Notes under the pieces: model-generated
What the model was told of the DNA's origin: nothing
Seen by the model: the letters and a program-made list of their open reading frames with translations, nothing else
Database searches by the model: none
Source of the DNA: Pseudomonadota bacterium
GTDB taxonomy: Bacteria; Pseudomonadota; Gammaproteobacteria; JAKAQQ01
DNA: 59,858 nt
Assembly (NCBI GenBank): GCA_021798795.1
Contig: JAJZBR010000002.1
Location: forward strand, 1 to 59,858
Direction of reading: 5' to 3'
Position numbers and translations under genes: made by a program
In this document: one piece after another, positions 14,421 to 48,034 of the stretch
How positions within the stretch are numbered: the stretch's first letter is position 1
How the letters are laid out: each line of letters begins with the position of its first letter

Positions 14421-14428
14421 GGAACCCC

Positions 14429-28155: not shown

Positions 28156-28270
28156 TCATTTCAAGCGTGAGGTCACGCCGATCGATTCGCGTGATCATAG
28201 TCTTCGACGATGGAGAACGACTCGGGGCCCGCGTGTGCCTTTGTGTGATGCCGGGATCAGACGGGGTAGC

Positions 28271-34422: not shown

Positions 34423-34474
34423 GAAGTTCTCCGGGATACGCGTGCGTGACTTCCGTCCGTCGGCGACGATCGGT

Positions 34475-34503
34475 AAAAAAAACCCGGGGCGAGATGCCCC
34501 GGG
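34475..34503 (-). terminator. rho-independent terminator after the upstream S10 gene
   Basis: The minus strand reads CCCGGGGC-ATCTC-GCCCCGGG followed by T8, and begins 37 nt after the stop at 34540. Confidence 0.85.
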
Positions 34504-34539
34504 TTGATTTGTGTTTCCACTCCGTGCAGCTTGAGTAGG

Positions 34540-36084
34540 TCAGTCGTGGGCTGCCATACGGATGAAGTGATCCAGGTTGGCGTGTAGCTCGTTAAGCGAG
34601 GCATGGTGGAGGTAGAGCATGTGCCCGCAATAATAGAACTTGAGGTGCACGTGGCTCTGGAGCGCTTTCGGGAGTCCCAGGTGCTCCATCGTGTAGACCG
34701 TTGCGAAGAACGGCGTACCGAGATCGAAGTAGCCGTTGTTCACGAGCAGCTCAAGATGGGGATTCGTGACCATCGCACGCTCAAGATCCGGGGCCACATT
34801 GGGATAACCGGGCCAGCCGCCCCCGAGCGTCGGAATCGCAGGATTGTGCTTCCAGATCCAGCTTCGATTGACCGCGTAGTTCAGGATGTCGTAATGGTGG
34901 CGAGTGTGATAGTGCAGGATGTTCTGGACATACCAGTTGAACGCGCCAGTGAATGCCCCGTCGATGGCCGAGGTCATCGTTGAATAGACGGGCAAGGGCA
35001 GCATCGGAACGAGTTTGTAGTTATCGTAGCGGGCATCCAGTCGTCCGGTCTGTTTGTTTTCCGAGTTGAGGAGAAGGCCTTGGAACTCGGATCCGGTGAT
35101 ACGGAGGTCGGCGCGGCGCCAGAGATGGGCGGGAATGCTGGTGTAGCGGACGAGTTTGGCGATGACCTGGCTTTTGACCTCCGGATTCAGGGTATCTCCC
35201 ATCATGAGGGCGTGGGCATAGGCGCCGGTTGCGAAGTGCTCGACCCGTTTGAGGAAGGCGGGCAGGTTTTTGGGCCGGGGGTTGAGTCGGTGGTGGTACC
35301 AGGCGACTGCAGCTTCGGAGGGCAAGTAGAGGATGTAGGGGAGGTCGTTGCCCGGGGCGAAGGAGGCGGTTTCGAAGTTGAGGATGGAGGAGAGGAGGAT
35401 GACGCCGTTCAGCTGGACGCCGTGGTGCTGGAGGTAGTTTGAGAGAACGGCGGAGCGGGTGGTACCGTAACTTTCGCCGAGGATGAACTTGGGTGAGTTC
35501 CAGCGGTTGAATTTGGTGAGGTAGCGCATGATGAAGGCGCCCACCGAATGGGCATCGGCATCAATGCCCCAGAACTGCTGGGGCTTCGCCTGACCGAGCA
35601 TGCGGCTATAGCCTGTGCCTACGGGATCGATGAAGACGATGTCGGTTCGATTGAGGATACTGTCAGGATTCTTGACGATGGGGTAGGGGGGAGGGGGGGA
35701 CGATTGGGCATTGGTTGGAACCGCAACGCGCCAGGGACCGATGCCGCCCAGATGGAGCCAGACCGTCGATGAACCGGGTCCGCCGTTATACGCGAAAGTG
35801 ATAGGCCGATCCTGTTCATTTGAAATTCCATCGCGCGTATAGGCTACATAGAAGATGCTTGCAATGGGCTGCATCTTCGCGTTGCGCATGATGAGGGTAC
35901 CGGCCCGCGCCGTATAACGGATGGTCTTGCCGTTGATGACCACGCTGCCATGGGTGACCACAGAACGGGAATGGGCGGGTTTGGGAGCCATGGGCATGGG
36001 CTTGGCCATGGCGACTGGAGCGAGCAGGCAGCCAGACAAAATGCCAGCTCCGATGAAAGATATGCTAAATATGAATCTTTTCAT
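34540..36084 (-). CDS. S10 family serine carboxypeptidase, upstream tandem copy
   Basis: 514 aa. Signal/lipobox-like N-terminus MKRFIFSISFIGAGILSGC. YNGGPGSS, GESYG and CGH motifs. Confidence 0.85.
   Translation of the reverse strand: MKRFIFSISFIGAGILSGCLLAPVAMAKPMPMAPKPAHSRSVVTHGSVVINGKTIRYTARAGTLIMRNAKMQPIASIFYVAYTRDGISNEQDRPITFAYNGGPGSSTVWLHLGGIGPWRVAVPTNAQSSPPPPYPIVKNPDSILNRTDIVFIDPVGTGYSRMLGQAKPQQFWGIDADAHSVGAFIMRYLTKFNRWNSPKFILGESYGTTRSAVLSNYLQHHGVQLNGVILLSSILNFETASFAPGNDLPYILYLPSEAAVAWYHHRLNPRPKNLPAFLKRVEHFATGAYAHALMMGDTLNPEVKSQVIAKLVRYTSIPAHLWRRADLRITGSEFQGLLLNSENKQTGRLDARYDNYKLVPMLPLPVYSTMTSAIDGAFTGAFNWYVQNILHYHTRHHYDILNYAVNRSWIWKHNPAIPTLGGGWPGYPNVAPDLERAMVTNPHLELLVNNGYFDLGTPFFATVYTMEHLGLPKALQSHVHLKFYYCGHMLYLHHASLNELHANLDHFIRMAAHD
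34997..35597. repeat. 601-bp block identical to 33326..33926 (inside S10 copy 2)
   Basis: See the partner repeat. A second near-identical block, 34177..34285 vs 35848..35956, has about 4 mismatches and includes a 71-bp exact run. Confidence 0.9.
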
Positions 36085-36301: not shown

Positions 36302-36877
36302 ATGGAAGACACATGCTCCCCTCTGGACAGCTTTGGGAACCAGGCCGAATGTCGTGGTGCCCAAGAAGAACTCGTCTATCGCGCAAGGCAAGGCGATGTT
36401 TCGTCATTTGAGAAACTCTACCGACTCCATATCGGGCATGTCTATGCTTTGTGTCTGCGCCTGTCGGGCGAGGTCCATAGTGCTGAAGAATGCACCCAGG
36501 AAGCGTTTATCCACGCGTGGCAGTCCATGGGCCGCTTTCGCGGGGAAGCGGCGTTTGGTTCCTGGCTCTACCGGATCGCCGTGAACACCGTTTTGGCGCG
36601 TTACCGTGCAGAGCTGCGCCGAAGTCTTTCGTTTGCGCCGGCAGACACAGATGAAGCGGAACGGGTTCCAAGTAGCGATGCTCCACTTGAGCTGGCACTC
36701 GATCTGGACCGGACGATCCGCGAGCTTCCATTGGGTGCCCGGGTTGTATTCGTCCTGCATGATATCGAAGGCTATGGACATCCCGAGATCGCATCCATGA
36801 CGCACCTCGCGGTCGGGACCTCAAAAGCGCATCTGCATCGCGCGCGCCGGATTTTGCGGAGACGACTCGTCCCATGA
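36302..36877 (+). CDS. ECF-type sigma-70 family RNA polymerase sigma factor
   Basis: 191 aa. Region 2 (FEKLYRLHIGHVYALCLRL...QEAFIHAW...FGSWLYRIAVN) and a region 4 HTH (HPEIASMTHLAVGTSKAHLHRARRIL). Confidence 0.88.
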   Translation: MEDTCSPLDSFGNQAECRGAQEELVYRARQGDVSSFEKLYRLHIGHVYALCLRLSGEVHSAEECTQEAFIHAWQSMGRFRGEAAFGSWLYRIAVNTVLARYRAELRRSLSFAPADTDEAERVPSSDAPLELALDLDRTIRELPLGARVVFVLHDIEGYGHPEIASMTHLAVGTSKAHLHRARRILRRRLVP

Positions 36878-37398
36878 CTGACCTGTGGGAGGATGAGGGT
36901 CGAAAAGTTGCCGAAGCGGTGCGGGGTGCCCTCCGCACGCTTGCCCCGGAACGCGATCTATGGCCGGATATCTCCCGAAAGCTGGCACCCAGGCGATCCG
37001 GATGGGTTAGAGGCTCTCTTGCAATTGCCGCAGCGGTCGTTCTGATGGCAGTGGGAGTTTGGTGGGCCCCTGCGGGGAACTGGTTGCAGCGGGGGCCCCC
37101 TGCGGGCAGGAGTACCGCCGCCTTCGCGGAGAAAGTCGTGAACCGGAGAGACCCATCGATGGATCTTGTCTGGCGCGCAGCGCACGATCCATACTTGCCG
37201 TATGCCACGCGGTCAGTCCTGATCTCCAATCTGCTCATTCTTCATCATGCGCAACTTGCGCTCGCTCGGGCCATGACCCGCCATCCGGATACTCCTGGCC
37301 TGAGTGATCTCATGATCCATCTCGAGAGCGAGCGAGCAAGATTCATGACGAGCGTCGAAGAAGCCCAAATCCAATCCAACCCGAGGATCATGTTATGA
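36874..37398 (+). CDS. putative single-pass anti-sigma factor (non-zinc type)
   Basis: 174 aa. ATGA overlap with the sigma gene. Short cytoplasmic N-terminus, one TM (SLAIAAAVVLMAVGVWW) and a periplasmic tail. No Cys/His zinc motif. Called by position and topology only. Confidence 0.55.
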   Translation: MTDLWEDEGRKVAEAVRGALRTLAPERDLWPDISRKLAPRRSGWVRGSLAIAAAVVLMAVGVWWAPAGNWLQRGPPAGRSTAAFAEKVVNRRDPSMDLVWRAAHDPYLPYATRSVLISNLLILHHAQLALARAMTRHPDTPGLSDLMIHLESERARFMTSVEEAQIQSNPRIML

Positions 37399-38321
37399 AA
37401 ACGTCGATATCAACGCACTGGTTATCTCCGTCCACGCGTGTCTGGGCTCTGATCGGGGCATCCTGGTTCCTCATCCACATGCCCATGGCACACTCGCGTC
37501 CCATCAATCTGACCCATGCGGCAACTCCGATGGAGCGGGTTCTGATCAACAATACCGCCGGCTCGGTTACGGTTTATGGCTGGAAACGGGATGCCGTACA
37601 CGTCTCGGGCACGCTGGGTGCGGGGAGTGAACGTCTGGCCGTTCATGCCCGTAAGGGCTGGATCCGGATCCGTGTGGTGCTCCCGGAGTATGCGATGAAC
37701 GTCCGGGGCACGCATCTCGTCGTGGATGTGCCGATTGCAAGCCGCCTGGTTGTGAAGACGGTAAGCGCCGAGATCCAAGCAAGCGGGCTTGCGGGAGTTG
37801 CGCACCTGAAGAGTGTCAGCGGGAACGTGCTGCTTCAATCCCAGTCCCATGTGATCACGGTGAAATCTGTGAGTGGGACCGTTCGCATCGCCGGATCTGC
37901 CCCGCTTGCCAGGATCCGTGCGCAAACCGTGAGTGGTGGGGTCTCGTTCCAGGCGATCCGCGGCTGGGTGCGGGCGAGCAGTGTGAGTGGTTCGATCCAG
38001 GCGTCGGATCATTTGCGTATGACCCGTGCGTTACTCCATTCAACCTCTGGAAATGTCCGGTTCGATGGACCCGTGCTTAGCCAGGGTCGGTATGTCCTGA
38101 CCAGCGTGAGTGGGGATATCGACGTACTTTTGAGTCCACATCCGGACGCACGTTTCTACGTGTCCACTTTGAGCGGCAGCATCAGAAACAACTTTGGTCC
38201 GAGCGCGCGCCGACAAAGCGCGTACGGACCCGGCCGGATCCTTGATTTTGTGAGTGGCAAGCACGGCGCATCTGTGAAGATCCATACCCTGAGCGGCGAT
38301 ATTACTCTGCGTGTGCGCTAA
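37395..38321 (+). CDS. DUF4097-type beta-helical repeat protein (putative exported)
   Basis: 308 aa with a signal-like N-terminus. Contains about 9 repeats of (V/T/L)SG(N/T/G/S/D)(V/I)xxxx (VSGNVLLQS, VSGTVRIAG, VSGGVSFQA, VSGSIQAS, TSGNVRFDG, VSGDIDVLL, LSGSIRNNF, LSGDITLRV). ATGA overlap with the anti-sigma gene. Confidence 0.8.
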   Translation: MKTSISTHWLSPSTRVWALIGASWFLIHMPMAHSRPINLTHAATPMERVLINNTAGSVTVYGWKRDAVHVSGTLGAGSERLAVHARKGWIRIRVVLPEYAMNVRGTHLVVDVPIASRLVVKTVSAEIQASGLAGVAHLKSVSGNVLLQSQSHVITVKSVSGTVRIAGSAPLARIRAQTVSGGVSFQAIRGWVRASSVSGSIQASDHLRMTRALLHSTSGNVRFDGPVLSQGRYVLTSVSGDIDVLLSPHPDARFYVSTLSGSIRNNFGPSARRQSAYGPGRILDFVSGKHGASVKIHTLSGDITLRVR

Positions 38322-38755: not shown

Positions 38756-40864
38756 TCATTCGTGGCAACCGCCACTGCACGTACCATCATTTTGTTCACC
38801 AGATGGTGGATGGTCGAGTTCCCTACGCAGCAGGGATTCCAGATGGGAGCAATACTCCGCAACGTAATCGATTTGATTGACTGAATCTCGGAGCCAGGGA
38901 TTCATCAGCGTGTGTCGCAGAACGAAAATCGAGTTCGTGTCCAGCACACCGGGTTGGTTCGGTCCGATCAAACCCAAAGCGTTGAGGATCCGACTGCGCT
39001 CGGTGGGCGCGAGTGAATCCGGATAAAGCAGCGTTGAGGAGCTGAAAAACTGTTGTGCCTGAAGCGGACGGGCCCGATCGACGCGGAGATGGGCGTACAC
39101 ACGGTATGCAAACGCGTTCATATGCCGGGCACTTGTGTTTCCCGCAGGATTAAAAGCGACGCAGAGCAGATTGGAATCGGGTTCAAAAGGAATGTGGACA
39201 TGGATCAGTCCCGCCAGACGTTCGGCCATGTTTTTCATGAGGTCATAGAGATGTTCGGTTGCCTGGATGCTCAGTTGGGGCAACTGGCCCAGATGGGCAT
39301 GATCCAACGGTAACGTTCGATGCGTCACATATACGGCCGCTGCTGCAGCACCGGGTTTGGATCCTTCGAGAATGAAGCGGCCGAGTTCCCGGAATCGTTC
39401 CCGGTAGGTTTGGTTGATGCGGTGTTCGGGATCCGTGAAGATGTACGGTACATCCTCCGCGACTGAATTCGTCATCCGGTGATCGCGGCAAACAAAAGCA
39501 CCACCCGAACCGTAGGGCAGGTAACCGAGCTTGTGGGGATCCACTGTCACCGAATCGACGGCCGAGAGAGCGGCGACCGCTTCATAAACCCGCGCTGATG
39601 GAAAGTAGTGGAACGCCTGCCGCACCTGCTCGCGTGGGCGCAGGTCACCGGATTCTTCACGAAATAGGCTGGCCAGATAGCCGCCCCACGCGGCGTCCAC
39701 ATGGACAGCAAAGCCAAGTCCCTTTTGGTTCCAGGCATTTCGCAAACGCACGATTTCGTGTATGGGATCCAATGTTCCGTATTCCGTGGTTCCCAGGATG
39801 CCGACCACGGCGAGAACCGGCACGTGCTGACTGGCACAGGTGGACAGGGTTTGCTCGAGCGCGTCCGTATCCATGCGCATACCATCCGTCGGCATCAGGC
39901 GGAGATGATTGTGCCCGAGCCCCAGGAGCTTACAGGCTTTTCTCCAGGAGTAATGGGCTGTTTGCGCGATCAGGATCACAGGAGGCTTGAGTGCTCCCCG
40001 GGCGTGATGAAAATCAATACATCCGAGTGTCTCGATCCGGTTGGACTCAAGTGCTTCGAGAAATGCGCGCAGCTTTGCAGTGTCCCCCTGCATTTGATCG
40101 CGACACGTTTCCGCAAGGGCGATCGCGCTGTCAACCGAAAGGTTGAACAGCTCCCAATCGTCATAGGATTGCAGCAGACGCCCGTTGAATGTCACTTCGA
40201 GATGGCACACATTGACCGCGGTCTGAATCGCCAATGGCAGGTATTTCAAGGCACGCAGAATCCAGAGCGCTTCGTAGTTTGCAACAGTTCCTCCTGATGT
40301 CAGGTGGCCAAATGCGCAGTTCGGTGCCGCCTCATCGTGGGGAAAACCCAGCATGCGCGCCAGTTGCAGGCCGACGTCGATTTCGAGATCGATCGTGCCA
40401 GCTGATGCATCGCTTGAAACGTTGTTCGGGTTATAGGGGATCGTGATCATCTGGGCGAGCAGCCCGGGCAGCAATGGGTCAGAGACCATGTGCCCCATAT
40501 AGCGTGGACTGGATAGGGGCGTCGATCGCTTGAGACGTGCGGTCAGCATCTGTAGTTCATGGCGCAGTCGAGACACAAAATCGACATAGGCCGCATCCTG
40601 CTGTGCAAACGGCGGGATGGGAGGTGGGTCGTCGGGGTGGAAGTTGCGGCGCCAATAAATATGATCGCGTAGCAGCTCGACCAGAAGACGTTCGAAGAGA
40701 TCGTTGTTCTCGGCATAGGCACCCAAGAAACATGCGTTCAGAAATGAAGCATCTGGTTTCATAGCGGGTTCCATTGGTTTGACAGGCATGGGATCAGGCG
40801 GTGCCGCCGCTTCGGAAGGGCTTCGAAATGGACCGCGAACGGGGCCATTTCTTTCATCGCGCAT
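38756..40864 (-). CDS. large group II PLP-dependent decarboxylase-like enzyme (tyrosine/aromatic amino acid decarboxylase-like fold)
   Basis: Motifs HIYWRRNFHPDD, HLTSGGTVANYEALW, HVDAAWGG and VDPHKLGY (PLP lysine). The chosen start ATG 40864 lies 1 nt after the chorismate mutase stop (TGAGATG). Alternative starts are 40789, 40774 and 40762. The tail is Cys-rich (GTCSGGCHE). Confidence 0.8.
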   Translation of the reverse strand: MRDERNGPVRGPFRSPSEAAAPPDPMPVKPMEPAMKPDASFLNACFLGAYAENNDLFERLLVELLRDHIYWRRNFHPDDPPPIPPFAQQDAAYVDFVSRLRHELQMLTARLKRSTPLSSPRYMGHMVSDPLLPGLLAQMITIPYNPNNVSSDASAGTIDLEIDVGLQLARMLGFPHDEAAPNCAFGHLTSGGTVANYEALWILRALKYLPLAIQTAVNVCHLEVTFNGRLLQSYDDWELFNLSVDSAIALAETCRDQMQGDTAKLRAFLEALESNRIETLGCIDFHHARGALKPPVILIAQTAHYSWRKACKLLGLGHNHLRLMPTDGMRMDTDALEQTLSTCASQHVPVLAVVGILGTTEYGTLDPIHEIVRLRNAWNQKGLGFAVHVDAAWGGYLASLFREESGDLRPREQVRQAFHYFPSARVYEAVAALSAVDSVTVDPHKLGYLPYGSGGAFVCRDHRMTNSVAEDVPYIFTDPEHRINQTYRERFRELGRFILEGSKPGAAAAAVYVTHRTLPLDHAHLGQLPQLSIQATEHLYDLMKNMAERLAGLIHVHIPFEPDSNLLCVAFNPAGNTSARHMNAFAYRVYAHLRVDRARPLQAQQFFSSSTLLYPDSLAPTERSRILNALGLIGPNQPGVLDTNSIFVLRHTLMNPWLRDSVNQIDYVAEYCSHLESLLRRELDHPPSGEQNDGTCSGGCHE

Positions 40865-40865
40865 C

Positions 40866-41222
40866 TCAACCGGGCTCAGCATCTTCGATTCCTGGATGCA
40901 TGTCCGCCAGGTGTTCAACCTGCCCGGTGTCTACACTGCCCGCCATCTGCAGGGAGTTTTGGAGTACGGCTGAAACGATCCTGCTCGTGGCTGCAGGATT
41001 GAGACGGTAGCGTTCGGCCGAGGCTCTACAACGGGCAAAGATCTCGAGCTCACGTTCCGGACTGCGTGCGGGCAGGCCGATGAGTTTCTTGATGTCCTGT
41101 GCCTGCTCAACCAGCTCACTTCTGAGTTTCAATAATAAAACCAGTCGGTCGTCTAACCGGTCAATCCGGCGCCGTATTGCATTGAGACGGTCTCGTTGTG
41201 CGGGTTGCGAGGATGGGGTCAT
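40866..41222 (-). CDS. monofunctional chorismate mutase (AroQ class)
   Basis: 118 aa. LNAIRRRIDRLDDRLVLLLKLRSELVEQAQDIKK...PERELEI matches the AroQ helix 1/2 pattern (R..ID.lD..ll.Ll..R....... K). No signal peptide. Confidence 0.85.
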   Translation of the reverse strand: MTPSSQPAQRDRLNAIRRRIDRLDDRLVLLLKLRSELVEQAQDIKKLIGLPARSPERELEIFARCRASAERYRLNPAATSRIVSAVLQNSLQMAGSVDTGQVEHLADMHPGIEDAEPG

Positions 41223-41386
41223 CTGCGTACGCCGGATCGCTATGGGACAGTGGACGTCAGGGCGAAGGTTCGGGATGGGCCATGTCCGGTCGCGCCGGGC
41301 AATCCCGTTTGACGAGTGATTGTGGACCTGTGCTGATCTTTTGCATATGACCTAGATCAAGGCGTGACCGTCGTACGCCGGATAGC

Positions 41387-41896
41387 ATGAAAGATATGGT
41401 TCTGCGCGCGTTTCTGAAACGCTTGGGTGATGGCGTGCCCATGCTCCCGGCAAGAGTCCTGAACTGGGGAAGCCGGATGCCCGCTCCGCTCAGAAATGCA
41501 CTCGTGGAACAGATTTTCAACTATGCGCTGAGAAAACCATTGGCGGCTGGCACCTTCGACTTCCTGTCGGATCAAGCTGTTTCGGTCGTTGCGTCGGATG
41601 CTGATTATGGAATATCGCTGACCTGTCACAAACGCCTTTTGCGCTTGCTGCCGAGTGGGTGTGCGGATACCACGATCACAGCATCGACACTTGATCTCCT
41701 TCGGATGGCAGCTGGCCAGGTTGATGCAGATAGTCTGTTCTTTCGCCAGCAGCTTACGATCCGCGGGAATGTGGCGCTCGGTCTCGAAACCAAAAATGCA
41801 CTCGATGGAATCGACCGTGATGACTTGCCGTTTCCGGTCTGGTCCGTACTGAGAGGAGCCGAGACGCTGTTCAGACGCATGGAGCAGACGAGGTGA
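41387..41896 (+). CDS. ubiT: SCP2-domain ubiquinone biosynthesis accessory factor UbiT (YhbT)
   Basis: 169 aa. Aligns with E. coli UbiT, including the ...DADSLFFRQQLTIRGNVALGLETKNALD block (E. coli DPDTLFFQRRLVIEGDTELGLYVKNLMD). Confidence 0.88.
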   Translation: MKDMVLRAFLKRLGDGVPMLPARVLNWGSRMPAPLRNALVEQIFNYALRKPLAAGTFDFLSDQAVSVVASDADYGISLTCHKRLLRLLPSGCADTTITASTLDLLRMAAGQVDADSLFFRQQLTIRGNVALGLETKNALDGIDRDDLPFPVWSVLRGAETLFRRMEQTR

Positions 41897-42761
41897 TGAT
41901 GCCCGCCTGCTCCAGCCAATAACCGTCGCATTCCGGGGCGCCGATCAGATCAGCTACCTCTGGTATATTTCCCCTGTCCAATGCCACACGGGCCCGGTGT
42001 AGCAACGCGGGAGTGTTACTGGCATCCGGGCTGATTCTGAGAATGCCGACTCCAGCGTGGGCAGCCTCGCGCCAGTAGGGCAGAAGGTTTACAATCCGCG
42101 CGGATTGAGTTTGAAGCCCATTCAGGGTCAGAAAGGGCTGCCCTTCCTGGGTTTCAACCGCCATTCCGGAGGGATAGCGTCCGCAGATGAAATGGCAATG
42201 ATCCCGGGTGTAGCCATGTGCCCGTGCGGTAAAACAGCGGGCCGAGTAGGCAAGTGGCATCCGGCCCAGTGTAAAAAGCTCGGTTTCCAAGTGATCCGAA
42301 CCTAGCATCCGGATCATGGTGGCCAGTGCGGCACCCGATATCTCGAGAGGCGGAATCCAGCGGAAGAGCCCCAGATCCCGTAGTTGTGCCAGCGTCCGTT
42401 CATTGTAAACATTCAGTGAAGCGCCTGCGACAAACGGAAGACCGTTTTCCATGAGCATGTGAACAGCCGCTGCATCATTGGCTTCCACCAGAAACTCTCC
42501 ATTGCTGCAGACCCGCTCGATCTGCGAGAGTTCAGATTCTGCTTCGACAACGGTCAAGGTGGACAGGACAATCTCTTTGCCGCGATCCTTCAGCATGCGT
42601 CCGATCTCAAGCCACTGCATCCAGCCCAGACTGCGCCGTTTTGAGCATACGGTCTCGCCGAGATAGACAATGTCAACAGGTGCTTCAGCGATATCATTAT
42701 AGAAGGCAAGAAGCTGATCGTTGTTCCAGTGATAACCAACCGGGCCAAGCGCAAGACGCAT
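41871..42761 (-). CDS. ubiV: U32-family O2-independent ubiquinone hydroxylase subunit UbiV (YhbV)
   Basis: MRLALGPVGYHWN...VYLGETVCSKRR...LPLAYSARCFTAR aligns with E. coli UbiV (MKYSLGPVLWYWP...IYLGEAVCSKRR...LPLAYSARCFTAR). The start could be 42782. Confidence 0.9.
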   Translation of the reverse strand: MRLALGPVGYHWNNDQLLAFYNDIAEAPVDIVYLGETVCSKRRSLGWMQWLEIGRMLKDRGKEIVLSTLTVVEAESELSQIERVCSNGEFLVEANDAAAVHMLMENGLPFVAGASLNVYNERTLAQLRDLGLFRWIPPLEISGAALATMIRMLGSDHLETELFTLGRMPLAYSARCFTARAHGYTRDHCHFICGRYPSGMAVETQEGQPFLTLNGLQTQSARIVNLLPYWREAAHAGVGILRISPDASNTPALLHRARVALDRGNIPEVADLIGAPECDGYWLEQAGIITSSAPCV

Positions 42762-42772
42762 AGGGGATTCGC

Positions 42773-43768
42773 TCAACGCCATACCCGGGCGTAAGCGCCC
42801 AGTGTCGTCTGTTGCCCTTCCGAAAGTTTGCCCAGGGCTTGTACCCACGCGCTCTCGGGCACGAAGTGCACCGGATCCCTTTGGCAGGCATCCAGTGCAG
42901 CACGCCAGGTTCGGACCACTTGGGCAATATATGCTGGACTGCGCTGTCGGCCTTCGAGCTTGATCGCCTCTATGCCGAGCGCAGCCAGTTTGGGCAAGAT
43001 ATCCAATGTGTTGAGGCTGGTTGGTTCTTCAAAGACATGGCGGATCCGGTTCTCGACACGAAATCGTCCCTTGCAGATTGTCGGGTAACCCGCAGCTTCC
43101 TCCGGTGCGAAACGGTCGATCAGAATGCCCGCAACACGCGTTTCCAGTCCCCCTGGGGTCGGTATCCAAGCCACGCTTTCGGCGGGAGAACAGGCACCAT
43201 AGTTGTTGGGGGAATGCCCACAGGCATAGGATGACAGCAGACAACGCCCCTCGGCCATGATGCAGAGACTGCCAAATCCGAACACTTCAAGCGGGACGAC
43301 GTCGTGTTCAGCAAGCCGCGCGATCTGGGTCAATGAGAGCACGCGGGGAAGCACTGCACGGCGAATGTTGAACAGATCCCGGTAAAGCCGGAGCGCGCGC
43401 CAATTCGTGGCGGAGGCCTGTACGGAAAGGTGCAGGCGGAGATCCGGGTAGGTCCGAGATGCGTAACCGAGGACCGCAAGATCGGCTGCTATGAGTGCAG
43501 AGACATTCGCTTCGGCGGCCTGGTCTACGGCGGCCTTCCAGTCAGCCCATTTGCCGGCACGCGCATAGGTATTGATGGCAACGTATATCTGAGCCTGAAA
43601 CCGTTTGGCTGTCTCGACGACTTCGTGGAGCTGCGCCGGTGCAAAGTTGAGCCCGGGAAAGTTACGCGCGTTGGTTGCATCGCGCAAGCCGAGATAGACG
43701 GCATCTGCGCCGGCTTCCAAAGCCGCTTTCAGGGAGCCGGGGCTGCCGGCAGGTGCAACAAGATCCAT
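42773..43768 (-). CDS. ubiU: U32-family O2-independent ubiquinone hydroxylase subunit UbiU (YhbU)
   Basis: 331 aa, near full-length collinear with E. coli UbiU (GADAVY.GL.D.TNAR.F.GLNF, FGSLCIM.EGRC.LSSY, GYPT.CKGR, EEPTSLNTL, IEGRQRSPAY, TTLGAY). Confidence 0.93.
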   Translation of the reverse strand: MDLVAPAGSPGSLKAALEAGADAVYLGLRDATNARNFPGLNFAPAQLHEVVETAKRFQAQIYVAINTYARAGKWADWKAAVDQAAEANVSALIAADLAVLGYASRTYPDLRLHLSVQASATNWRALRLYRDLFNIRRAVLPRVLSLTQIARLAEHDVVPLEVFGFGSLCIMAEGRCLLSSYACGHSPNNYGACSPAESVAWIPTPGGLETRVAGILIDRFAPEEAAGYPTICKGRFRVENRIRHVFEEPTSLNTLDILPKLAALGIEAIKLEGRQRSPAYIAQVVRTWRAALDACQRDPVHFVPESAWVQALGKLSEGQQTTLGAYARVWR

Positions 43769-43794
43769 TGGCGGATGCGGTTGGACACCCTACC

Positions 43795-43836
43795 ATTGTA
43801 AAAGCCGAAGTTGGGAGGATGCTTGATACGGATCAA
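43795..43836 (-). promoter_or_regulatory. class II FNR/CRP-family dependent promoter for ubiU-ubiV
   Basis: A perfect palindrome TTGAT-ACGG-ATCAA lies at 43823..43836. On the minus strand a TACAAT -10 hexamer (43800..43795) sits 32 bp from the box centre. This is the spacing expected for a -41.5 site, and predicts a TSS about 20 nt upstream of the ubiU ATG (43768). Confidence 0.7.
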
Positions 43837-43916
43837 GGAAATCACGAGCCTAGACTCCTTTCTGACTTTGGTGGCCCGGATGGTTGCATCAGGTGCCGTG
43901 ATAGGTGACGCACGGC

Positions 43917-44573
43917 CTATCCTGAAAATCCCCACCGGGGTGTGAGATCGTGTTCAACGTCCAGATGGTCGAGGGTGCGAGCGACGACGAAATCGACGAG
44001 GCGGTCAACTGACAGGGGGGGATGATAAAAGCCCGGGCAGGCCGGAAGCATCACGACTCCGGATTGCGACAAATGGAGCATGTGTGTGAGGTGAATACAG
44101 CTCAAAGGGGTTTCTCTGGGTACCAGAACGAGCTTGCGGCGCTCTTTGATCATGACATCAGCGGCCCGTTCGAGCAAGGTATGGCTCGCACCGGTCGCGA
44201 TGGCTGCAAGCATGCCCATGCTGCATGGACAGATGGCCATTGCATCTACGCGGGCCGATCCACTGGCCATCGGCGCCGTCCACTGCCGTTCACCGAAAAC
44301 ACGCAGATGCCCGCGTGCATCGGTGATCGGGGCGAAGTGTGTGTTCAGTATTCGTTCGATTGCAAGCGGTTCATCGGGCAGGGTCAGTTCCGTTTCCATT
44401 GCCATGACCGTTCGTGCCGAATCGGTCACGACCACGTGAACTTCACGGTTGGCGATGAGTAATCGTTCAATGAGTCTCAGGCCGTAAATGGTTCCTGATG
44501 CGCCACTCAGTCCTACCACAACGGGTGACCGATCACCTGATCGTACATGCGATTCCAGGCGTCTGGTACTCAC
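43917..44573 (-). CDS. ubiX: flavin prenyltransferase UbiX
   Basis: The GTG start overlaps the ubiD stop (GTGA). VVVGLSGASGTIYGLRLIE, PCSMG and typical UbiX length (218 aa). The longer ORF to 44648 lies inside ubiD. Confidence 0.9.
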   Translation of the reverse strand: MSTRRLESHVRSGDRSPVVVGLSGASGTIYGLRLIERLLIANREVHVVVTDSARTVMAMETELTLPDEPLAIERILNTHFAPITDARGHLRVFGERQWTAPMASGSARVDAMAICPCSMGMLAAIATGASHTLLERAADVMIKERRKLVLVPRETPLSCIHLTHMLHLSQSGVVMLPACPGFYHPPLSVDRLVDFVVARTLDHLDVEHDLTPRWGFSG

Positions 44574-46036
44574 CCGAGTTCGAGATCTGACCAGAGACGA
44601 TCGATGCGTGCGACGATCTCGGGGTCTTTGATGATCGGACGTCCCCATGTGCGGCTCGTTTCGCCCGGACCCTTGTTCGTGGCATCCACTCCGAGCTTGG
44701 ATCCGAGCCCGGTAGTTGCCGATGTGAAATCCAGATTGTCGACGGGAGTCGCATCCATGCAGAAAATGTCACGCTTCGGGTCCACGCGGGTACTTAATAC
44801 CCAGAGAACATCCTTCCAGTTGCGAACGTCGATATCGTCGTCCGTGATGATCACGTACTTGGTATAAAGAAACTGGCGCAGAAAGCTCCAGATGCCAAAC
44901 ATGACCCGCCTGGCCTGGCCTGGATACTCCTTACGGATGCTCACACAGGCCATCCGGTAGCTGCAGGCTTCGGGAGGAAGATAGAAGTCGATGATTTCCG
45001 GAAACTGACGTTTGAGGATCGGGATAAAAAGCTCGTTCAGAGCGGCCGCTAGGACGGATGGCTCATCCGGAGGGCGCCCGGTATGGGTGGCGTGAAAGAT
45101 GGGGTCATCGCGATGGGTGAGCCGGGTAACGGTCATGACCGGATAGGGGGCCACCTCGTCATAGTAGCCGGTATGGTCACCGAACGGACCTTCGACAGCC
45201 GTATCATCCGGGTGGATGAAGCCTTCGAGGACAATCTCGGCCTGCGCCGGAACACTGAGATCGTGGGACAGACAGGGGGCAATCTCCGTACGGGATCCTC
45301 TCAGCAGGCCAGCGAAAGCATACTCCGAGAAATGGTCGGGAATCGGCATCGCTGCGGCGATCAGCATCGCGGGATCTGCACCAATTGCTACGGCGACCGG
45401 GAAGGGTTTGTCCGGATGGGCCCCGCGCCATGCCCTGAAATCCAGTGCGCCCCCGCGGTGGGGCAGCCAACGCATGATCAGGCGGTTGTGGTCGATGACC
45501 TGCTGGCGGTAGACCCCAACGTTGAGTCGCTCGCGAACTGGTCCCCGCGTTACTGTCAAACCCCAGGTGATCAAGGGTCCAGCATCGCCTGGCCAACTGG
45601 TGACCAGTGGCAGGCGGCTTAAATCCACGTCGTTTCCTGTTAGTTGATGCGTTTGACAAGCCGGACGATGGATCCGGCGCAGAGGCATTTTGAGCGCACC
45701 CCGCATCAGTTCCAGGTGGCCGAGTATATCCGCCAGACCCTGAGGTGGTTCCGGCTCGCGATAGAGGGCCAGTCGCTCGCCGAACTCGCGCAGATCCCCG
45801 ATTGTGCGGCGTCCGAGTGCCCTTGCCACCCGGTCGGGTGTCCCGAGGAGATTCGTCAGGACCGGCAGGGTCTGCCCCACGGGCCGTGTAAAGAGCAAGG
45901 CAGGCCCTCCTCGCTTCAAGACCCGGTCAGAGATCTCAGTAATTTCGAACTGAGGATCGATGGGGACGTCGATCTTTTTTAGTTCCCCGCACTGATTGAG
46001 CTCATCAACAAAGGATCGCAAGCTGTTCAGGGACAT
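44570..46036 (-). CDS. ubiD: 4-hydroxy-3-polyprenylbenzoate decarboxylase UbiD
   Basis: 488 aa. N-terminal LRSFVDELNQCGELKKIDVPIDP.FEITEI.DRVLK.GGPALLF and the prFMN-binding core typical of UbiD. Confidence 0.92.
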   Translation of the reverse strand: MSLNSLRSFVDELNQCGELKKIDVPIDPQFEITEISDRVLKRGGPALLFTRPVGQTLPVLTNLLGTPDRVARALGRRTIGDLREFGERLALYREPEPPQGLADILGHLELMRGALKMPLRRIHRPACQTHQLTGNDVDLSRLPLVTSWPGDAGPLITWGLTVTRGPVRERLNVGVYRQQVIDHNRLIMRWLPHRGGALDFRAWRGAHPDKPFPVAVAIGADPAMLIAAAMPIPDHFSEYAFAGLLRGSRTEIAPCLSHDLSVPAQAEIVLEGFIHPDDTAVEGPFGDHTGYYDEVAPYPVMTVTRLTHRDDPIFHATHTGRPPDEPSVLAAALNELFIPILKRQFPEIIDFYLPPEACSYRMACVSIRKEYPGQARRVMFGIWSFLRQFLYTKYVIITDDDIDVRNWKDVLWVLSTRVDPKRDIFCMDATPVDNLDFTSATTGLGSKLGVDATNKGPGETSRTWGRPIIKDPEIVARIDRLWSDLELG

Positions 46037-46047
46037 CTGGACGAGCT

Positions 46048-47970
46048 TCAGCTTGCGATGCGTGTTGCAACGGCGAAACGGGAGGAGTCAATGCCAGGCA
46101 TCAGGGGTTTGTCCCACTCGATGCTGATGCGATCACCGGCGTGTCTCAGCCGATCCATCCACTGTCCAATATGTACGTGATGACTAATCGGCGCATCCTT
46201 GAACTCAAGGACCAGTGTGAGAGTCCGAAATCTCCGCAGCAGACGGTTCATCAGGTTCAGGGCAGACTTCAGGTCTGCGGACTGGCAGGATCTTCCAACG
46301 ACCATGCGAAGCCGCACCGGTCTGGATAGACGCTCAAATTGAATCCTGAAGATTCCATTAGCGGTCGGTTCCTGGAGCTTGCGGAGAAGTTGGACGACGT
46401 GTCTTTCGATCGACAGTCGTTCGCGGAATGTTGGGTGGCAGACGTAACGCCTGGCATATTCCCGGATGGAGAAGCCAGCGGCCCAATCTTGGCAGGCATC
46501 TGGCCAGAGCGATGGGCGCACATGACCGAGGCTCCATACGAATCGCGCGCCGCAGACCACTCCGCTCCTCAGGATTCCACGGATAGCCAGCCGCCAGAGG
46601 GTGCGCCCGGCATGACGCTCGTTCGCGTGATGCCGGAATGAATGATGGTTTTTGCGATAAAAACGGAACTTGTTGCGGATACGCATGGCCATCGCACGAT
46701 AACTCGTCAGACGTTCATAGAGGGCCGCGTAGCCGACGGTGAGTTCATCATAGGTCATGCCGAGGGGCACAATGTTTGTCTGCCCGCCGGTATTGTCCCC
46801 GGGTTGCACATGGGCCCGCAGTCGATTCTCCCGTCTCAGCCGTTCGTAAAGCGGTGTCCGTGGTACGGCCGTGAGAAGACCCAGCATGGCAACCTGGATG
46901 CCCGATGCTTCAATAAAATGGTACTGGCGCTCAAACGTTTTGACCGAATCATGATCAAAGCCCACGATGAAACCGCTGAACACGTCGATTCCGTTCTGGT
47001 AAAAGGCGCGGACGGCATCCAGCAGGCTACCCCTCAGGTTCTGTTTTTTCCCTGTCTCGGCCAGGCTTTCCGTTTCGGGTGTTTCGATGCCGAGGAAGAC
47101 CCAATGAAATCCGGCAGCGCGGACCCTGGAGAGAAGCTCACGGTCGGTTGCGAGATTGACCGATACCTCGGTACCAAACGAGAACGGGTAATTGTGGCAT
47201 CGCTGGTATTCTGTTAGAAACTCGAGCAAGGCCAGGGCACGTGGCCGATGTCCAATCAGGTTATCGTCAACGAAGAACACGTTGTGGACGCCATATCGGC
47301 GCAGGAGGTCGAGTTCGTCATGAATCTGTTCAAGGGTTTTGGTCCGTGGTTTCCGGCCAAAAAGAACGGGAATGTCGCAGAACTCACATTGATAAGGACA
47401 TCCCCGTGAGAACTGCAGGCTGGCTGTCGTGTAGGAAGAAAACTTGATCAGGTCGTAACGCGGCGTCGGCGAATGCCGGAGATCGACCGGGACTGCCTGG
47501 TGATAGCGTCTGGCTGCTATACCCTGTTCGAAATCGCGGCAGAACGCTGGCCAGATCAGTTCGGCCTCACCAATTATCAAGGTATCCACAAGCCCCTCAT
47601 AGGATGAGGGCGACAAGGAGACATAGCTCCCGCCAGCCACGACATGGTAGCCTTTCTCGCGATAGTACCCGAGGAGTTCCCTTTGGCGTGGAAACTGGAC
47701 AGCCATCCCGCCGATGCCGACAATATCCGCATCCGGATCCAGCGGCAGGGGCTCAATGTTTTCGTCACAGATTGCGATGTCCCAGTGGGCTGGAGTCAGC
47801 GCGGCAAGGGTCGCGAGTCCGAGGGGTGGGTTGATCGCCCGTTTGTCCGAGAGCACTTCGCGGAGCGCCCAGCGGAAGCTCCAGAAGCTTTCCGGAGAAC
47901 GGGGATTGACCAGAACCAGGCGTATCGGTCGTTTGGGAAGAAGTTTGGGATCGATCGGGTGCACGAACAT
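46048..47970 (-). CDS. B12-binding-domain radical SAM protein with DUF4070-like C-terminal region (function unknown)
   Basis: 640 aa. N-terminal cobalamin-binding-like segment (DIVGIGGMAVQFPRQRELLGYYREKGYHVVAGG) and radical SAM motif FSRGCPYQCEFCD (CX3CX2C). About 230 aa of C-terminal extension. The stop lies 11 nt before the ubiD start. Confidence 0.85.
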   Translation of the reverse strand: MFVHPIDPKLLPKRPIRLVLVNPRSPESFWSFRWALREVLSDKRAINPPLGLATLAALTPAHWDIAICDENIEPLPLDPDADIVGIGGMAVQFPRQRELLGYYREKGYHVVAGGSYVSLSPSSYEGLVDTLIIGEAELIWPAFCRDFEQGIAARRYHQAVPVDLRHSPTPRYDLIKFSSYTTASLQFSRGCPYQCEFCDIPVLFGRKPRTKTLEQIHDELDLLRRYGVHNVFFVDDNLIGHRPRALALLEFLTEYQRCHNYPFSFGTEVSVNLATDRELLSRVRAAGFHWVFLGIETPETESLAETGKKQNLRGSLLDAVRAFYQNGIDVFSGFIVGFDHDSVKTFERQYHFIEASGIQVAMLGLLTAVPRTPLYERLRRENRLRAHVQPGDNTGGQTNIVPLGMTYDELTVGYAALYERLTSYRAMAMRIRNKFRFYRKNHHSFRHHANERHAGRTLWRLAIRGILRSGVVCGARFVWSLGHVRPSLWPDACQDWAAGFSIREYARRYVCHPTFRERLSIERHVVQLLRKLQEPTANGIFRIQFERLSRPVRLRMVVGRSCQSADLKSALNLMNRLLRRFRTLTLVLEFKDAPISHHVHIGQWMDRLRHAGDRISIEWDKPLMPGIDSSRFAVATRIAS

Positions 47971-47992
47971 CTATCGGACATATCTTGCGCTT

Positions 47993-48034
47993 ATTGTGAG
48001 AGATCACACGCATCCACTGCTTGACACAAATCAA
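47993..48034 (-). promoter_or_regulatory. FNR-like box and -10 element upstream of the radical SAM-ubiD-ubiX unit
   Basis: TTGAC-ACAA-ATCAA at 48021..48034 matches 9/10 of the consensus. CACAAT on the minus strand (47998..47993) is again 32 bp from the box centre, which is 57.5 bp upstream of the ATG at 47970. Confidence 0.5.

What the first reader, a model, noticed from the sequence alone, without database searches (positions are those of the whole stretch)
38756..48034. 9.3-kb oxygen-independent ubiquinone supercluster
One contiguous locus holds ten elements: chorismate mutase, a PLP enzyme, ubiT, ubiV, ubiU, an FNR box, ubiX, ubiD, a B12 radical SAM enzyme and a second FNR-like box. In E. 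coli these functions are scattered (ubiTUV at one locus, ubiD and ubiX elsewhere, no dedicated chorismate mutase). The clustering, and its position at the far end of the accessory stretch that starts at tRNA-Thr, suggests a transferable module. Such a module would combine ring decarboxylation, O2-independent hydroxylation, co-substrate supply and two unassigned enzymes. This is the best candidate in the window for an undescribed extension of a known pathway.
Basis: inference. Interest (0 to 1): 0.75.

Follow-up and report, generated by a model that had tools for sequence, protein, structure and literature searches.

The report
FNR-controlled anaerobic ubiquinone gene cluster
One 9-kb stretch, apparently under a common low-oxygen switch, holds the genes for making the respiratory lipid ubiquinone without oxygen, an enzyme that makes the oxygen-donor molecule, and two enzymes of unknown role; the pathway is already known, and only the packaging and the two extra enzymes are new.

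Summary

The eight genes form four transcription units: rSAM-ubiD-ubiX, ubiU-ubiV, ubiT, and CM-PLP. Each is preceded by an FNR box, 22 nt, then a -10-like hexamer. This is class II FNR geometry, and it is conserved in four genomes.

The core is the known O2-independent ubiquinone pathway. UbiD/X, UbiU/V and UbiT are joined by a monofunctional chorismate mutase that would supply prephenate, the published O donor of UbiUV. That role gains support from chorismate mutase-UbiT fusion proteins, which are widespread in Lysobacterales.

The full arrangement occurs only in close relatives. The ubiD/X-ubiTUV linkage is already published.

The PLP enzyme resembles tyrosine decarboxylase. Its family sits in anaerobic or denitrification islands: 24 of 47 loci lie within 10 kb of ubi genes. 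Its role is unknown.

The DUF4070 radical SAM gene usually stands alone. It is linked to ubi genes in only one other lineage.

The "transferable island from tRNA-Thr" idea is not supported. There is no integrase and no att repeat, synteny is conserved, and the cluster has diverged as much as its housekeeping flanks. Only a GC3 dip remains.

Verdict: a new variant of a known system, of moderate interest.

The parts
48021..48034 (.). FNR-type box TTGACACAAATCAA (1 mismatch) upstream of the radical SAM gene. On the - strand it is followed by 22 nt and the -10-like hexamer CACAAT (47993-47998).
   Evidence: The box and CACAAT at the same spacing are conserved in L002 and L086.
46048..47970 (-). 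Radical SAM enzyme, 640 aa. It has an N-terminal Rossmann-type (B12-binding-like) domain, a radical SAM core with C191-x3-C195-x2-C198, DUF4070, and an unassigned C-terminal alpha/beta domain. It is the first gene of the rSAM-ubiD-ubiX unit, 11 nt from ubiD.
44570..46036 (-). ubiD, the prFMN-dependent 4-hydroxy-3-polyprenylbenzoate decarboxylase.
   Evidence: All three UbiD Pfam domains are present. TIGR00148 scores 508.6 (cutoff 244.85). The best family is NF008175, at 736.5 bits, just under its cutoff of 788.
43917..44573 (-). ubiX, flavin prenyltransferase, 218 aa. It has a GTG start overlapping the ubiD stop by 4 nt.
   Evidence: TIGR00421 scores 190.6 (cutoff 108.9) and NF004685 scores 189.4 (cutoff 188).
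43823..43836 (.). Perfect FNR box TTGATACGGATCAA upstream of ubiU. On the - strand it is followed by 22 nt and the -10-like hexamer TACAAT (43795-43800). The box centre lies 61.5 nt before the ubiU ATG.
   Evidence: A perfect box at the same position occurs in L002, L086 and L003, with TATCAT, TATCCT and TATACT respectively.
42773..43768 (-). ubiU, the U32-family O2-independent hydroxylase subunit.
   Evidence: NF047963, 512.5 bits, cutoff 440.
41871..42761 (-). ubiV, the U32-family partner of UbiU, starting 11 nt after the ubiU stop.
   Evidence: NF047965, 344 bits, cutoff 275.
41387..41896 (+). ubiT, the SCP2-domain accessory factor, convergent with ubiV. The real start is probably a downstream ATG (41396 or 41441), because the -10-like hexamer TAGCAT (41383-41388) overlaps the first ATG.
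   Evidence: NF047962, 100.1 bits, cutoff 46.9.
41347..41360 (.). FNR-like box ATGACCTAGATCAA (2 mismatches) in the divergent CM/ubiT gap. It is flanked at 22 nt on both sides by -10-like hexamers: TAGCAT toward ubiT, and CACAAT (41319-41324, - strand) toward CM. This is a putative bidirectional FNR promoter.
   Evidence: The box, with 1 mismatch, and the hexamers are conserved in L002, L086 and L003.
40866..41222 (-). Monofunctional AroQ-class chorismate mutase, 118 aa. It is proposed as the dedicated prephenate supplier for UbiUV.
   Evidence: Catalytic-position residues R17, R34, K45, R57 and E58 are invariant with the CM domains of CM-UbiT fusions. CM lies next to ubiT in L001, L003 and L086.
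38756..40882 (-). Group II PLP-dependent decarboxylase-like enzyme, 708 aa, most similar to bacterial tyrosine decarboxylases. Its start overlaps the CM stop by 17 nt. Function unassigned.
   Evidence: invariant D-P-H-K PLP-lysine motif; E. faecalis TyrDC 7cwx, E = 2e-121.

Best explanation
The locus is a chromosomal, vertically inherited set of four transcription units. All four appear to be switched on by an FNR-type oxygen sensor. Together they supply the steps of ubiquinone synthesis that otherwise need O2.

Proposed roles of the core genes:
- UbiX makes prenyl-FMN for UbiD, which decarboxylates the prenylated 4-hydroxybenzoate ring. This is the only decarboxylation route known to work without O2.
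- UbiU-UbiV, helped by the lipid-binding UbiT, carry out the three ring hydroxylations using prephenate as the oxygen donor.
- The small chorismate mutase makes that prephenate locally, independent of the feedback-controlled Phe/Tyr enzymes.

Two further enzymes share the same promoters, and I treat both as co-regulated anaerobic enzymes not yet shown to act in the pathway.
- The tyrosine-decarboxylase-like PLP enzyme is translationally coupled to the chorismate mutase. It most likely decarboxylates an aromatic amino acid derived from the prephenate branch.
- The class-B-type radical SAM enzyme heads the ubiD-ubiX unit.

Shown here: gene identities, gene order, conservation, and promoter geometry. 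Inferred: FNR control, CM as prephenate supplier, and any role for the PLP and radical SAM enzymes.
For: - Family assignments reach curated cutoffs for UbiU, UbiV, UbiT, UbiX and the UbiD subfamily.
- Three FNR boxes each lie 22 nt from a -10-like hexamer on every gene-facing side. That places the box centre at about -41.5. Chance is about 2e-8. The geometry is conserved in L002, L086 and L003.
- Short gaps or overlaps within units: 11 nt, a 4-nt overlap, 11 nt, and a 17-nt overlap.
- Published background. Prephenate is the O donor of UbiUV, and a CM domain restores anaerobic UQ in E. coli (PMC10990095). [quoted passage not shown]
- CM is adjacent to ubiT in L001/L002, L086 and L003.
- CM is fused to UbiT in at least 8 Lysobacterales species loci. 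All 120 best database clusters matching such a fusion carry both domains.
- The CM catalytic residues are invariant.
- The whole arrangement and its flanks are conserved in relatives. Cluster genes are 50-86% identical to those relatives and flanking genes 63-94%.
Against: - There are no expression data, and no FNR gene lies in the window. Regulation is inferred from sequence only.
- UbiD scores just under the equivalog cutoff (736.5 against 788).
- CM is co-transcribed with the PLP enzyme, not with ubiUV. It could primarily feed that enzyme.
- Cluster GC3 is about 10 points below that of neighbouring housekeeping genes. This could indicate an old acquisition.
- PLP orthologues also occur in islands with no ubi gene within 10 kb.
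- Most radical SAM orthologues have no ubi neighbour.
Confidence: 0.75

Rival explanations
1. The PLP decarboxylase and/or the DUF4070 radical SAM enzyme are real, undescribed components of O2-independent ubiquinone synthesis. Possible roles include anaerobic oxidative maturation of prenyl-FMN for UbiD, an electron or radical partner for UbiUV, or processing of prephenate-derived products.
For: - The PLP gene is translationally coupled to CM here, and to ubiD in L018 (8-nt overlap).
- 24 of 47 PLP orthologue loci have ubi genes within 10 kb, in at least 9 different gene orders.
- The radical SAM gene heads ubiD-ubiX here. In L091 it heads an overlapping rSAM/YhcC-like rSAM/ubiU/ubiV array behind a perfect FNR box. 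That is one independent co-occurrence in about 237 kb of flank. My rough estimate of the chance expectation is about 0.02-0.06; this is inference, not a computed value.
- The physiological oxidant for prFMN maturation in anaerobes is unknown (PMC13040415). So is the electron acceptor of UbiUV (PMC10990095).
Against: - E. coli makes UQ anaerobically without either enzyme (my own knowledge of the E. coli gene set, together with PMC6747719).
- PLP orthologues also sit in nor/nir/nnrS/hemN islands with no ubi genes nearby (L008, L039, L053, L069, L171).
- 26 of the 28 radical SAM orthologue loci show no ubi gene and no conserved neighbourhood of any kind.
- Homologues about 50% identical are named from taxa not known to make UQ, e.g. 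Thermoanaerobaculia.
Confidence: 0.2
2. The stretch from tRNA-Thr (28.1 kb) to 48 kb is a horizontally acquired, transferable island, with the ubiquinone cluster as its cargo.
For: - GC is 0.573-0.580 across 28.2-48.0 kb, against 0.614 on both sides.
- The tetranucleotide correlation between the two outer flanks is 0.98. Cluster against flanks is 0.89.
- Cluster GC3 is 0.58-0.67 against 0.69-0.75.
- In L091 a similar cluster abuts a DDE transposase.
- ubi modules sit in different contexts in different lineages.
Against: - No integrase, transposase or other mobility gene lies in 28-48 kb.
- No tRNA-Thr fragment of 12 nt or more is repeated anywhere in the window.
- The S10 peptidase genes inside the stretch have normal GC3 (0.73-0.74).
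- The same flanks (M13 peptidase, 5'-nucleotidase, BaxI, OEP, lspA, ileS on one side; two S10 peptidases on the other) are found in L002 and L086.
- Identity to those relatives is similar for cluster and flank genes.
- Lower GC3 can also reflect weak codon bias in genes expressed only under anoxia.
Confidence: 0.12
3. CM and the PLP enzyme form a separate two-step branch. Chorismate goes to prephenate, then to an aromatic amino acid, then to an aromatic amine such as tyramine or phenylethylamine. This branch would be induced under anoxia or NO stress, unrelated to UbiUV, and merely parked beside ubiT.
For: - The CM-PLP operon has overlapping or closely spaced genes in the window, L001 and L003.
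- The PLP enzyme keeps the decarboxylase catalytic Lys/His/Tyr positions. Its best solved relatives are tyrosine decarboxylases.
- The PLP family is tied to NO/denitrification genes: nnrS, sirB, norB, scdA.
Against: - In Lysobacterales the CM domain is fused to UbiT, not to the PLP enzyme, and lies several kb from the PLP gene.
- Most PLP orthologue loci have no CM next to the gene.
- The published prephenate requirement of UbiUV gives CM a direct role (PMC10990095).
Confidence: 0.15

Closest known systems
E. coli ubiT / ubiU-ubiV (yhbTUV) locus, FNR-activated O2-independent ubiquinone hydroxylation (PMC6747719, PMC10470549, PMC11707229)
   Same: Orthologous UbiU, UbiV and UbiT pass the NCBIfam equivalog cutoffs. 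ubiV directly follows ubiU. FNR boxes lie upstream of ubiU and ubiT at activating distance.
   Different: Here ubiT is convergent with ubiV. The locus also carries ubiD, ubiX, a chorismate mutase, a PLP decarboxylase-like gene and a radical SAM gene, all behind FNR-type promoters. In E. coli these functions are elsewhere, or are provided by PheA/TyrA.
Hyphomicrobium denitrificans ubiXDTUV gene set (Hden_0564-0568), co-regulated with denitrification (PMC12423496); Magnetococcus marinus ubiTUV next to other ubi genes (PMC6747719)
   Same: The decarboxylation genes (ubiX, ubiD) are physically joined to ubiTUV as an anaerobic module. In the related Lysobacterales loci found here, the module sits among nor/nir/hemN/fabB genes, as it does in H. 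denitrificans.
   Different: The gene order differs. The window has no denitrification genes. The published descriptions mention no chorismate mutase, PLP decarboxylase or DUF4070 radical SAM gene.
Chorismate mutase-UbiT fusion proteins of Lysobacterales (Rhodanobacter, Dyella, Frateuria, Arenimonas). Databases name them 'UbiT' or 'lipid carrier protein YhbT/chorismate mutase'.
   Same: They show the same functional pairing of an AroQ chorismate mutase with UbiT. The catalytic residues are shared with the window CM.
   Different: In the window and in L001, L003 and L086 the two are separate, divergently transcribed genes sharing one FNR box. The window CM is only 26-31% identical to the fusion proteins in the alignment.
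Enterococcus faecalis / Lactobacillus brevis tyrosine decarboxylase (PDB 7cwx, 5hsi)
   Same: Full-length similarity (profile E = 2e-121). The TyrDC C-terminal domain is present. The PLP lysine motif and the neighbouring His and Tyr positions are conserved.
   Different: The window protein scores 346.7 against the TyrDC equivalog cutoff of 905.3, so it is a distinct family. It has no adjacent amino acid/amine antiporter. Its genomic context is anaerobic respiration and ubiquinone genes, not acid resistance.
Class B (cobalamin-domain) radical SAM enzymes: AprD4, OxsB, CysS, TokK, TsrM, MgmA; HpnP as a DUF4070-bearing lipid methylase (PMC10697835)
   Same: The window protein shares the N-terminal Rossmann-type domain plus radical SAM core with CxxxCxxC. 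The best sequence and fold matches are to these enzymes. It carries DUF4070, as HpnP does.
   Different: No curated family cutoff is reached; the best is 79.7 bits against 600. The best structural match, AprD4, is to my knowledge a dehydratase that does not use B12. The window protein has an extra C-terminal domain of about 100 aa with no family assignment. Its substrate is unknown.

Membership tests
O2-independent ubiquinone pathway (UbiT/UbiU/UbiV) | UbiU, UbiV and UbiT orthologues that reach the curated equivalog scores | tested here: met
   NF047963 512.5 (cutoff 440), NF047965 344 (cutoff 275), NF047962 100.1 (cutoff 46.9).
O2-independent ubiquinone pathway (UbiT/UbiU/UbiV) | ubiV immediately follows ubiU, and ubiT lies within 500 bp (PMC11707229) | tested here: met
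   11-nt gap between ubiU and ubiV. ubiT overlaps the end of ubiV by 26 nt on the opposite strand.
O2-independent ubiquinone pathway (UbiT/UbiU/UbiV) | FNR-binding site upstream of ubiU and/or ubiT | tested here: met
   a perfect box before ubiU and a 2-mismatch box before ubiT. Both are at class II spacing and are conserved in three relatives. Binding itself was not tested.
O2-independent ubiquinone pathway (UbiT/UbiU/UbiV) | Anaerobic UQ synthesis depends on these genes | not testable with these tools
   Needs genetics and quinone analysis.
UbiD/UbiX decarboxylase system | UbiD with its three domains, assigned to the polyprenyl-hydroxybenzoate clade | tested here: inconclusive
   all three Pfam domains are present and the subfamily model TIGR00148 is passed. 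The specific equivalog NF008175 is the best hit, but at 736.5 bits it is under the 788 cutoff.
UbiD/UbiX decarboxylase system | UbiX-family flavin prenyltransferase adjacent to UbiD | tested here: met
   TIGR00421 190.6 (cutoff 108.9). The start overlaps the ubiD stop.
AroQ (type II) chorismate mutase | CM_2 domain with the catalytic Arg/Arg/Lys/Arg-Glu residues | tested here: met
   PF01817 54.3 (cutoff 27). No NCBIfam equivalog cutoff is reached.
Tyrosine decarboxylase (TIGR03811, Enterococcus type) | Equivalog-level score | tested here: not met
   346.7 bits against a cutoff of 905.3. It is related, but not a member.
Group II PLP-dependent decarboxylases | Pyridoxal_deC domain with the conserved PLP-binding lysine | tested here: met
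   PF00282 75.9 (cutoff 27). D448-P-H-K451 is invariant in 13 family members.
Class B (B12-dependent) radical SAM enzymes | Radical SAM core with a CxxxCxxC cluster motif | tested here: met
   PF04055 68.9 (cutoff 29.5). C191, C195 and C198 are invariant.
Class B (B12-dependent) radical SAM enzymes | N-terminal cobalamin-binding domain that actually binds B12 | tested here: inconclusive
   PF02310 is not detected in the window protein at E<=1e-3. It is listed in the precomputed Pfam domains of most homologues but is marked only faint or weak for the three whose contigs were examined. The model shows a Rossmann-type N-terminal domain. The best fold matches are B12-domain radical SAM enzymes, led by AprD4. 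To my knowledge AprD4 does not use B12.
tRNA-associated genomic island | Integrase or other mobility gene next to the tRNA or within the stretch | tested here: not met
   the stretch holds an S9 peptidase, two S10 peptidases, an ECF sigma, a DUF4097 protein, and three ORFs without any Pfam match (one of them the putative anti-sigma). No integrase or transposase.
tRNA-associated genomic island | Direct repeat of the tRNA 3' end at the far border | tested here: not met
   no fragment of the tRNA-Thr of 12 nt or more recurs in the window.
tRNA-associated genomic island | Atypical composition relative to the flanks | tested here: met
   GC 0.573-0.580 against 0.614. Cluster GC3 is about 0.61 against about 0.71.
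tRNA-associated genomic island | Absent from, or differently placed in, related genomes | tested here: not met
   the same position and flanks occur in L002 and L086, with divergence similar to the flanking genes.

The most novel reading that the evidence does not exclude
The tyrosine-decarboxylase-like PLP enzyme and/or the DUF4070 radical SAM enzyme may be missing accessory factors of anaerobic ubiquinone synthesis. The YhcC-like radical SAM and SirB-like membrane proteins seen beside ubiUV/ubiD in other lineages may belong to the same group. Possible roles are the O2-free oxidative maturation of prenyl-FMN for UbiD, or the unidentified oxidant or electron outlet of the prephenate-dependent UbiUV hydroxylase. 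In addition, CM-UbiT pairing and fusion may mean that prephenate is made and delivered directly at the UbiT-UbiUV complex.
Probability: 0.2. Interest if true: 0.75.

Novelty: new variant of a known kind. Interest (0 to 1): 0.5.

Why it matters
O2-independent ubiquinone synthesis was discovered in 2019, and its oxygen donor, prephenate, in 2024. Two questions remain open: which oxidant or electron acceptor serves UbiUV, and how prenyl-FMN is matured for UbiD without O2.

This locus and its relatives give independent genomic support for the prephenate mechanism. A dedicated chorismate mutase shares a promoter region with ubiT, and elsewhere it is fused to UbiT. I found no paper in the searchable library that mentions UbiT together with chorismate mutase.

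The loci also yield a short list of co-regulated genes of unknown function that can be tested directly as missing factors: the TyrDC-like PLP enzyme, the DUF4070 radical SAM, a YhcC-like radical SAM, and SirB.

The locus further illustrates that some bacteria place every O2-replacing step of the pathway behind FNR promoters in one place.

Tried and rejected
- Generic sigma-70 promoter and terminator scan of 38.3-48.3 kb. Counts equalled the shuffle expectation, so it was uninformative.
- Rfam scan of 38.0-48.4 kb at E<=1. No riboswitch or other RNA family, so there is no B12 or SAM riboswitch before the radical SAM gene.
- Search for att-like repeats of tRNA-Thr. None found.
- Unsupervised ORF clustering around PLP orthologues. 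In these high-GC loci it was confounded by shadow ORFs. I replaced it with directed tblastn using annotated neighbours.
- Neighbourhood clustering around 28 radical SAM orthologues. No conserved neighbour in more than 4 loci, so context gave no functional clue.
- AlphaFold model of the radical SAM protein. Confidence was only moderate (pLDDT 69). The fold search confirmed the class-B-like architecture but gave no substrate clue.
- Literature searches for a PLP decarboxylase or chorismate mutase tied to UbiT/UbiU, and for tyrosine decarboxylase with nnrS and denitrification. All returned nothing.
- The idea that the radical SAM gene is consistently FNR-controlled. Support is only partial: 7 of 45 orthologues have a box within 330 bp upstream against 1.4 expected, including all three of the closest.
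- Organism identity could not be established. The closest contigs are unnamed Gammaproteobacteria MAGs and a mine-drainage metagenome.

Full report
**What is in the sequence**

On the minus strand lie:
- a 640-aa radical SAM/DUF4070 protein (46048-47970);
- ubiD (44570-46036);
- ubiX (43917-44573, GTG start overlapping the ubiD stop);
- ubiU (42773-43768);
- ubiV (41871-42761);
- a 118-aa AroQ chorismate mutase (40866-41222);
- a 708-aa group II PLP decarboxylase-like protein (38756-40882), whose start overlaps the chorismate mutase stop by 17 nt.

ubiT (41387-41896) is on the plus strand, convergent with ubiV. UbiU, UbiV, UbiT and UbiX exceed the curated NCBIfam cutoffs. UbiD passes the subfamily model, and its best hit is the polyprenyl-hydroxybenzoate decarboxylase model, just under that cutoff. 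The perfect FNR box at 43823-43836 and the one-mismatch box at 48021-48034 are real. A third, weaker box lies at 41347-41360, between chorismate mutase and ubiT.

**Regulation (inferred)**

The number of FNR-like 14-mers in the window is not above chance. Their geometry is. On every side of the three boxes that faces a gene, a -10-like hexamer sits exactly 22 nt from the box:
- TACAAT before ubiU;
- CACAAT before the radical SAM gene;
- CACAAT toward chorismate mutase;
- TAGCAT toward ubiT.

This spacing puts the box centre at about -41.5, the class II FNR activation position. Such hexamers occupy 0.63% of positions in the window, so four of six sides by chance is about 2e-8. The same boxes and hexamers are found at the same places in three other genomes (L002, L086, L003).

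The locus therefore reads as four FNR-dependent units: rSAM-ubiD-ubiX, ubiU-ubiV, ubiT, and CM-PLP. The last two share a bidirectional promoter. FNR sites upstream of ubiU and ubiT are already known to be general (PMC11707229). No FNR gene is in the window, and no riboswitch is present.

**Conservation of the arrangement**

The complete gene order recurs with the same flanks: M13 peptidase and 5'-nucleotidase on one side, two S10 peptidases on the other. It is found in a Gammaproteobacteria MAG (L001/L002) and in a mine-drainage metagenome contig (L086).

A more distant contig (L003, PLP 64% identical) keeps ubiU-ubiV-ubiT(convergent)-CM-PLP. It has different flanks (nadAB, fabAB) and lacks rSAM-ubiD-ubiX. 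The nine-kilobase "supercluster" is therefore lineage-specific, built from sub-modules that recur more widely.

**The chorismate mutase**

Prephenate is the published oxygen donor of UbiUV, and a chorismate mutase domain restores anaerobic UQ in E. coli pheA tyrA mutants (PMC10990095). Three findings here fit that.
- The CM gene shares a promoter region with ubiT in four genomes.
- In Lysobacterales the CM domain is fused to UbiT in a single protein of about 285 aa. L018:15305-16171 has CM_2 plus SCP2/UbiT. Single-HSP fusions occur in eight species loci. All 120 best 90%-identity clusters found with this protein carry both Pfam domains, from Rhodanobacter, Dyella, Frateuria, Arenimonas and others.
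- The residues at the catalytic positions of AroQ mutases are invariant between the window CM, its relatives and the fusions.

This is Rosetta-stone evidence that the CM serves the UbiTUV system. No paper in the searchable library mentions UbiT together with chorismate mutase.

**ubiD/ubiX**

Their presence in an anaerobic module is expected. UbiD/X are essential for UQ only without O2 in E. coli, because an O2-dependent alternative exists (bioRxiv 10.64898/2026.03.05.709815). H. denitrificans has a ubiXDTUV set co-regulated with denitrification (PMC12423496). This part of the finding is not new.

**The PLP enzyme**

It belongs to a well-populated family: 3106 homologues at E<=1e-10. The family has an invariant D-P-H-K PLP-lysine motif. 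Its closest solved relatives are the Enterococcus and Lactobacillus tyrosine decarboxylases (E = 2e-121), but it falls far below the TyrDC equivalog cutoff.

I fetched 80 species-representative loci and mapped neighbours. Of 47 orthologue loci with at least 10 kb of flank:
- 24 have ubiD, ubiUV or ubiT within 10 kb;
- 30 have hemN, fnr, norB, nnrS, sirB or nirK;
- 39 have one or the other.

The typical Lysobacterales island reads hemN-fnr-norB-nnrS-sirB-PLP-(Cds1-like PALP enzyme)-ubiD-ubiU-ubiV-(fabB)-(CM-ubiT)-nirK. In L018 the PLP gene overlaps ubiD by 8 nt.

Other lineages show different orders. L005 and L170 have ubiUVT-fnr-scdA-DGC-PLP. L171 has nirS/nor/sirB next to PLP. L169 has nothing related. 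Distant homologues (28-35% identical) in other phyla have no ubi neighbours.

The enzyme is thus a recurrent member of anaerobic/denitrification islands. It is often, but not always, beside ubi genes. My best guess is an aromatic amino acid decarboxylase expressed under anoxia. A direct role in UQ synthesis is possible but unproven.

**The radical SAM enzyme**

It has the CxxxCxxC motif, DUF4070 and a Rossmann-type N-terminal domain. The best sequence and fold matches are class B enzymes: AprD4, OxsB, CysS, TokK, TsrM and MgmA. B12 use is not established.

I fetched 80 metagenome loci for its homologues. The 28 full-length orthologues among them (at least 46% identical) share no conserved neighbourhood. 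Besides the close relative L086, only L091 links the gene to ubi genes. There it is striking: sirB, fnr, a perfect FNR box, then overlapping rSAM/YhcC-like rSAM/ubiU/ubiV, convergent ubiT, another FNR box, ubiD, and a transposase.

FNR boxes precede 7 of 45 orthologues against 1.4 expected, including the three closest. I read it as an anaerobically expressed enzyme whose link to UQ is suggestive but weak.

**Island hypothesis**

Between tRNA-Thr (28082-28157) and the cluster lie peptidases, hypothetical genes and an ECF sigma/anti-sigma/DUF4097 module, with no mobility genes. No fragment of the tRNA is repeated. To the right the cluster abuts M13 peptidase, 5'-nucleotidase, BaxI, OEP, lspA, ileS, ribF and murJ.

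Identity to L002/L086 is 50-86% for cluster genes and 63-94% for flanking genes, as expected for joint vertical descent. A compositional dip is real: GC 0.573 against 0.614, and GC3 about 0.61 against about 0.71. It could reflect an old acquisition or weak codon bias. I do not regard the module as demonstrably transferable.

**Verdict**

The locus is a new variant of the known O2-independent ubiquinone system. It is a compact set that appears FNR-controlled, joining decarboxylation, hydroxylation and dedicated prephenate supply. Two co-regulated enzymes of unknown role are reasonable but unproven candidates for open steps, namely the prFMN oxidant in anaerobes (PMC13040415) and the electron acceptor of UbiUV (PMC10990095).

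Noticed in passing
L018:15305-16171 (- strand); also L012, L017, L021, L022, L024, L037, L042: Single proteins of about 280-300 aa fuse an AroQ chorismate mutase domain to UbiT (SCP2). They are widespread in Lysobacterales: all 120 best database clusters carry both domains. I found no paper mentioning UbiT together with chorismate mutase.
   Followed up: yes
L005:2294-3211 and L091:9917-10903: A small YhcC-like radical SAM protein (Radical_SAM + Radical_SAM_C) lies immediately upstream of ubiU in two unrelated contigs, behind perfect FNR boxes. In L005 a PNPOx-like flavoprotein gene sits between it and ubiU.
   Followed up: partly
L037:11856-12986 and about 20 other Lysobacterales loci: A fold-type II PLP enzyme usually lies directly downstream of the PLP decarboxylase gene and upstream of ubiD. 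It is most similar to the L-cysteine desulfhydrase Cds1 model (455 bits, cutoff 600). There is no counterpart in the window.
   Followed up: partly
L019:9258-9788, L091:6129-6527, L005:1669-2049, L171:9462-9866: A SirB-family small membrane protein recurs right next to the PLP decarboxylase gene or ubiD in several lineages. It is absent from the window.
   Followed up: no
window 36302-38321: An ECF sigma factor, a putative anti-sigma protein and a DUF4097 protein lie between the cluster and the S10 peptidase genes. This module is missing at the same place in the relative L002, and its GC3 is lower (0.59-0.67).
   Followed up: partly
window 32869-36084: Two tandem paralogous S10 serine carboxypeptidase genes sit in a stretch with unusually strong positive GC skew (up to 0.23). 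They are conserved in L002 at 87-94% identity, higher than most neighbouring genes.
   Followed up: no
L003:5753-7047: In L003 the perfect FNR box before ubiU has -10-like hexamers at 22 nt on both sides. The other side faces nadA-nadB, suggesting a shared anaerobic promoter for quinolinate and ubiquinone genes. fabA-fabB lie just past the PLP gene. This recalls the fatty-acid genes next to ubiXDTUV in H. denitrificans.
   Followed up: no
L091:16929-17843: A DDE transposase gene lies at the edge of the L091 ubi/radical SAM cluster. It is the only mobility gene seen next to any of the clusters examined.
   Followed up: no
window 11206-17345: An arn-like lipid A aminoarabinose modification set lies upstream of the tRNA: ArnT-like transferase, DegT aminotransferase, GT2, formyltransferase and epimerase/dehydratase. 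It is unrelated to the finding.
   Followed up: no
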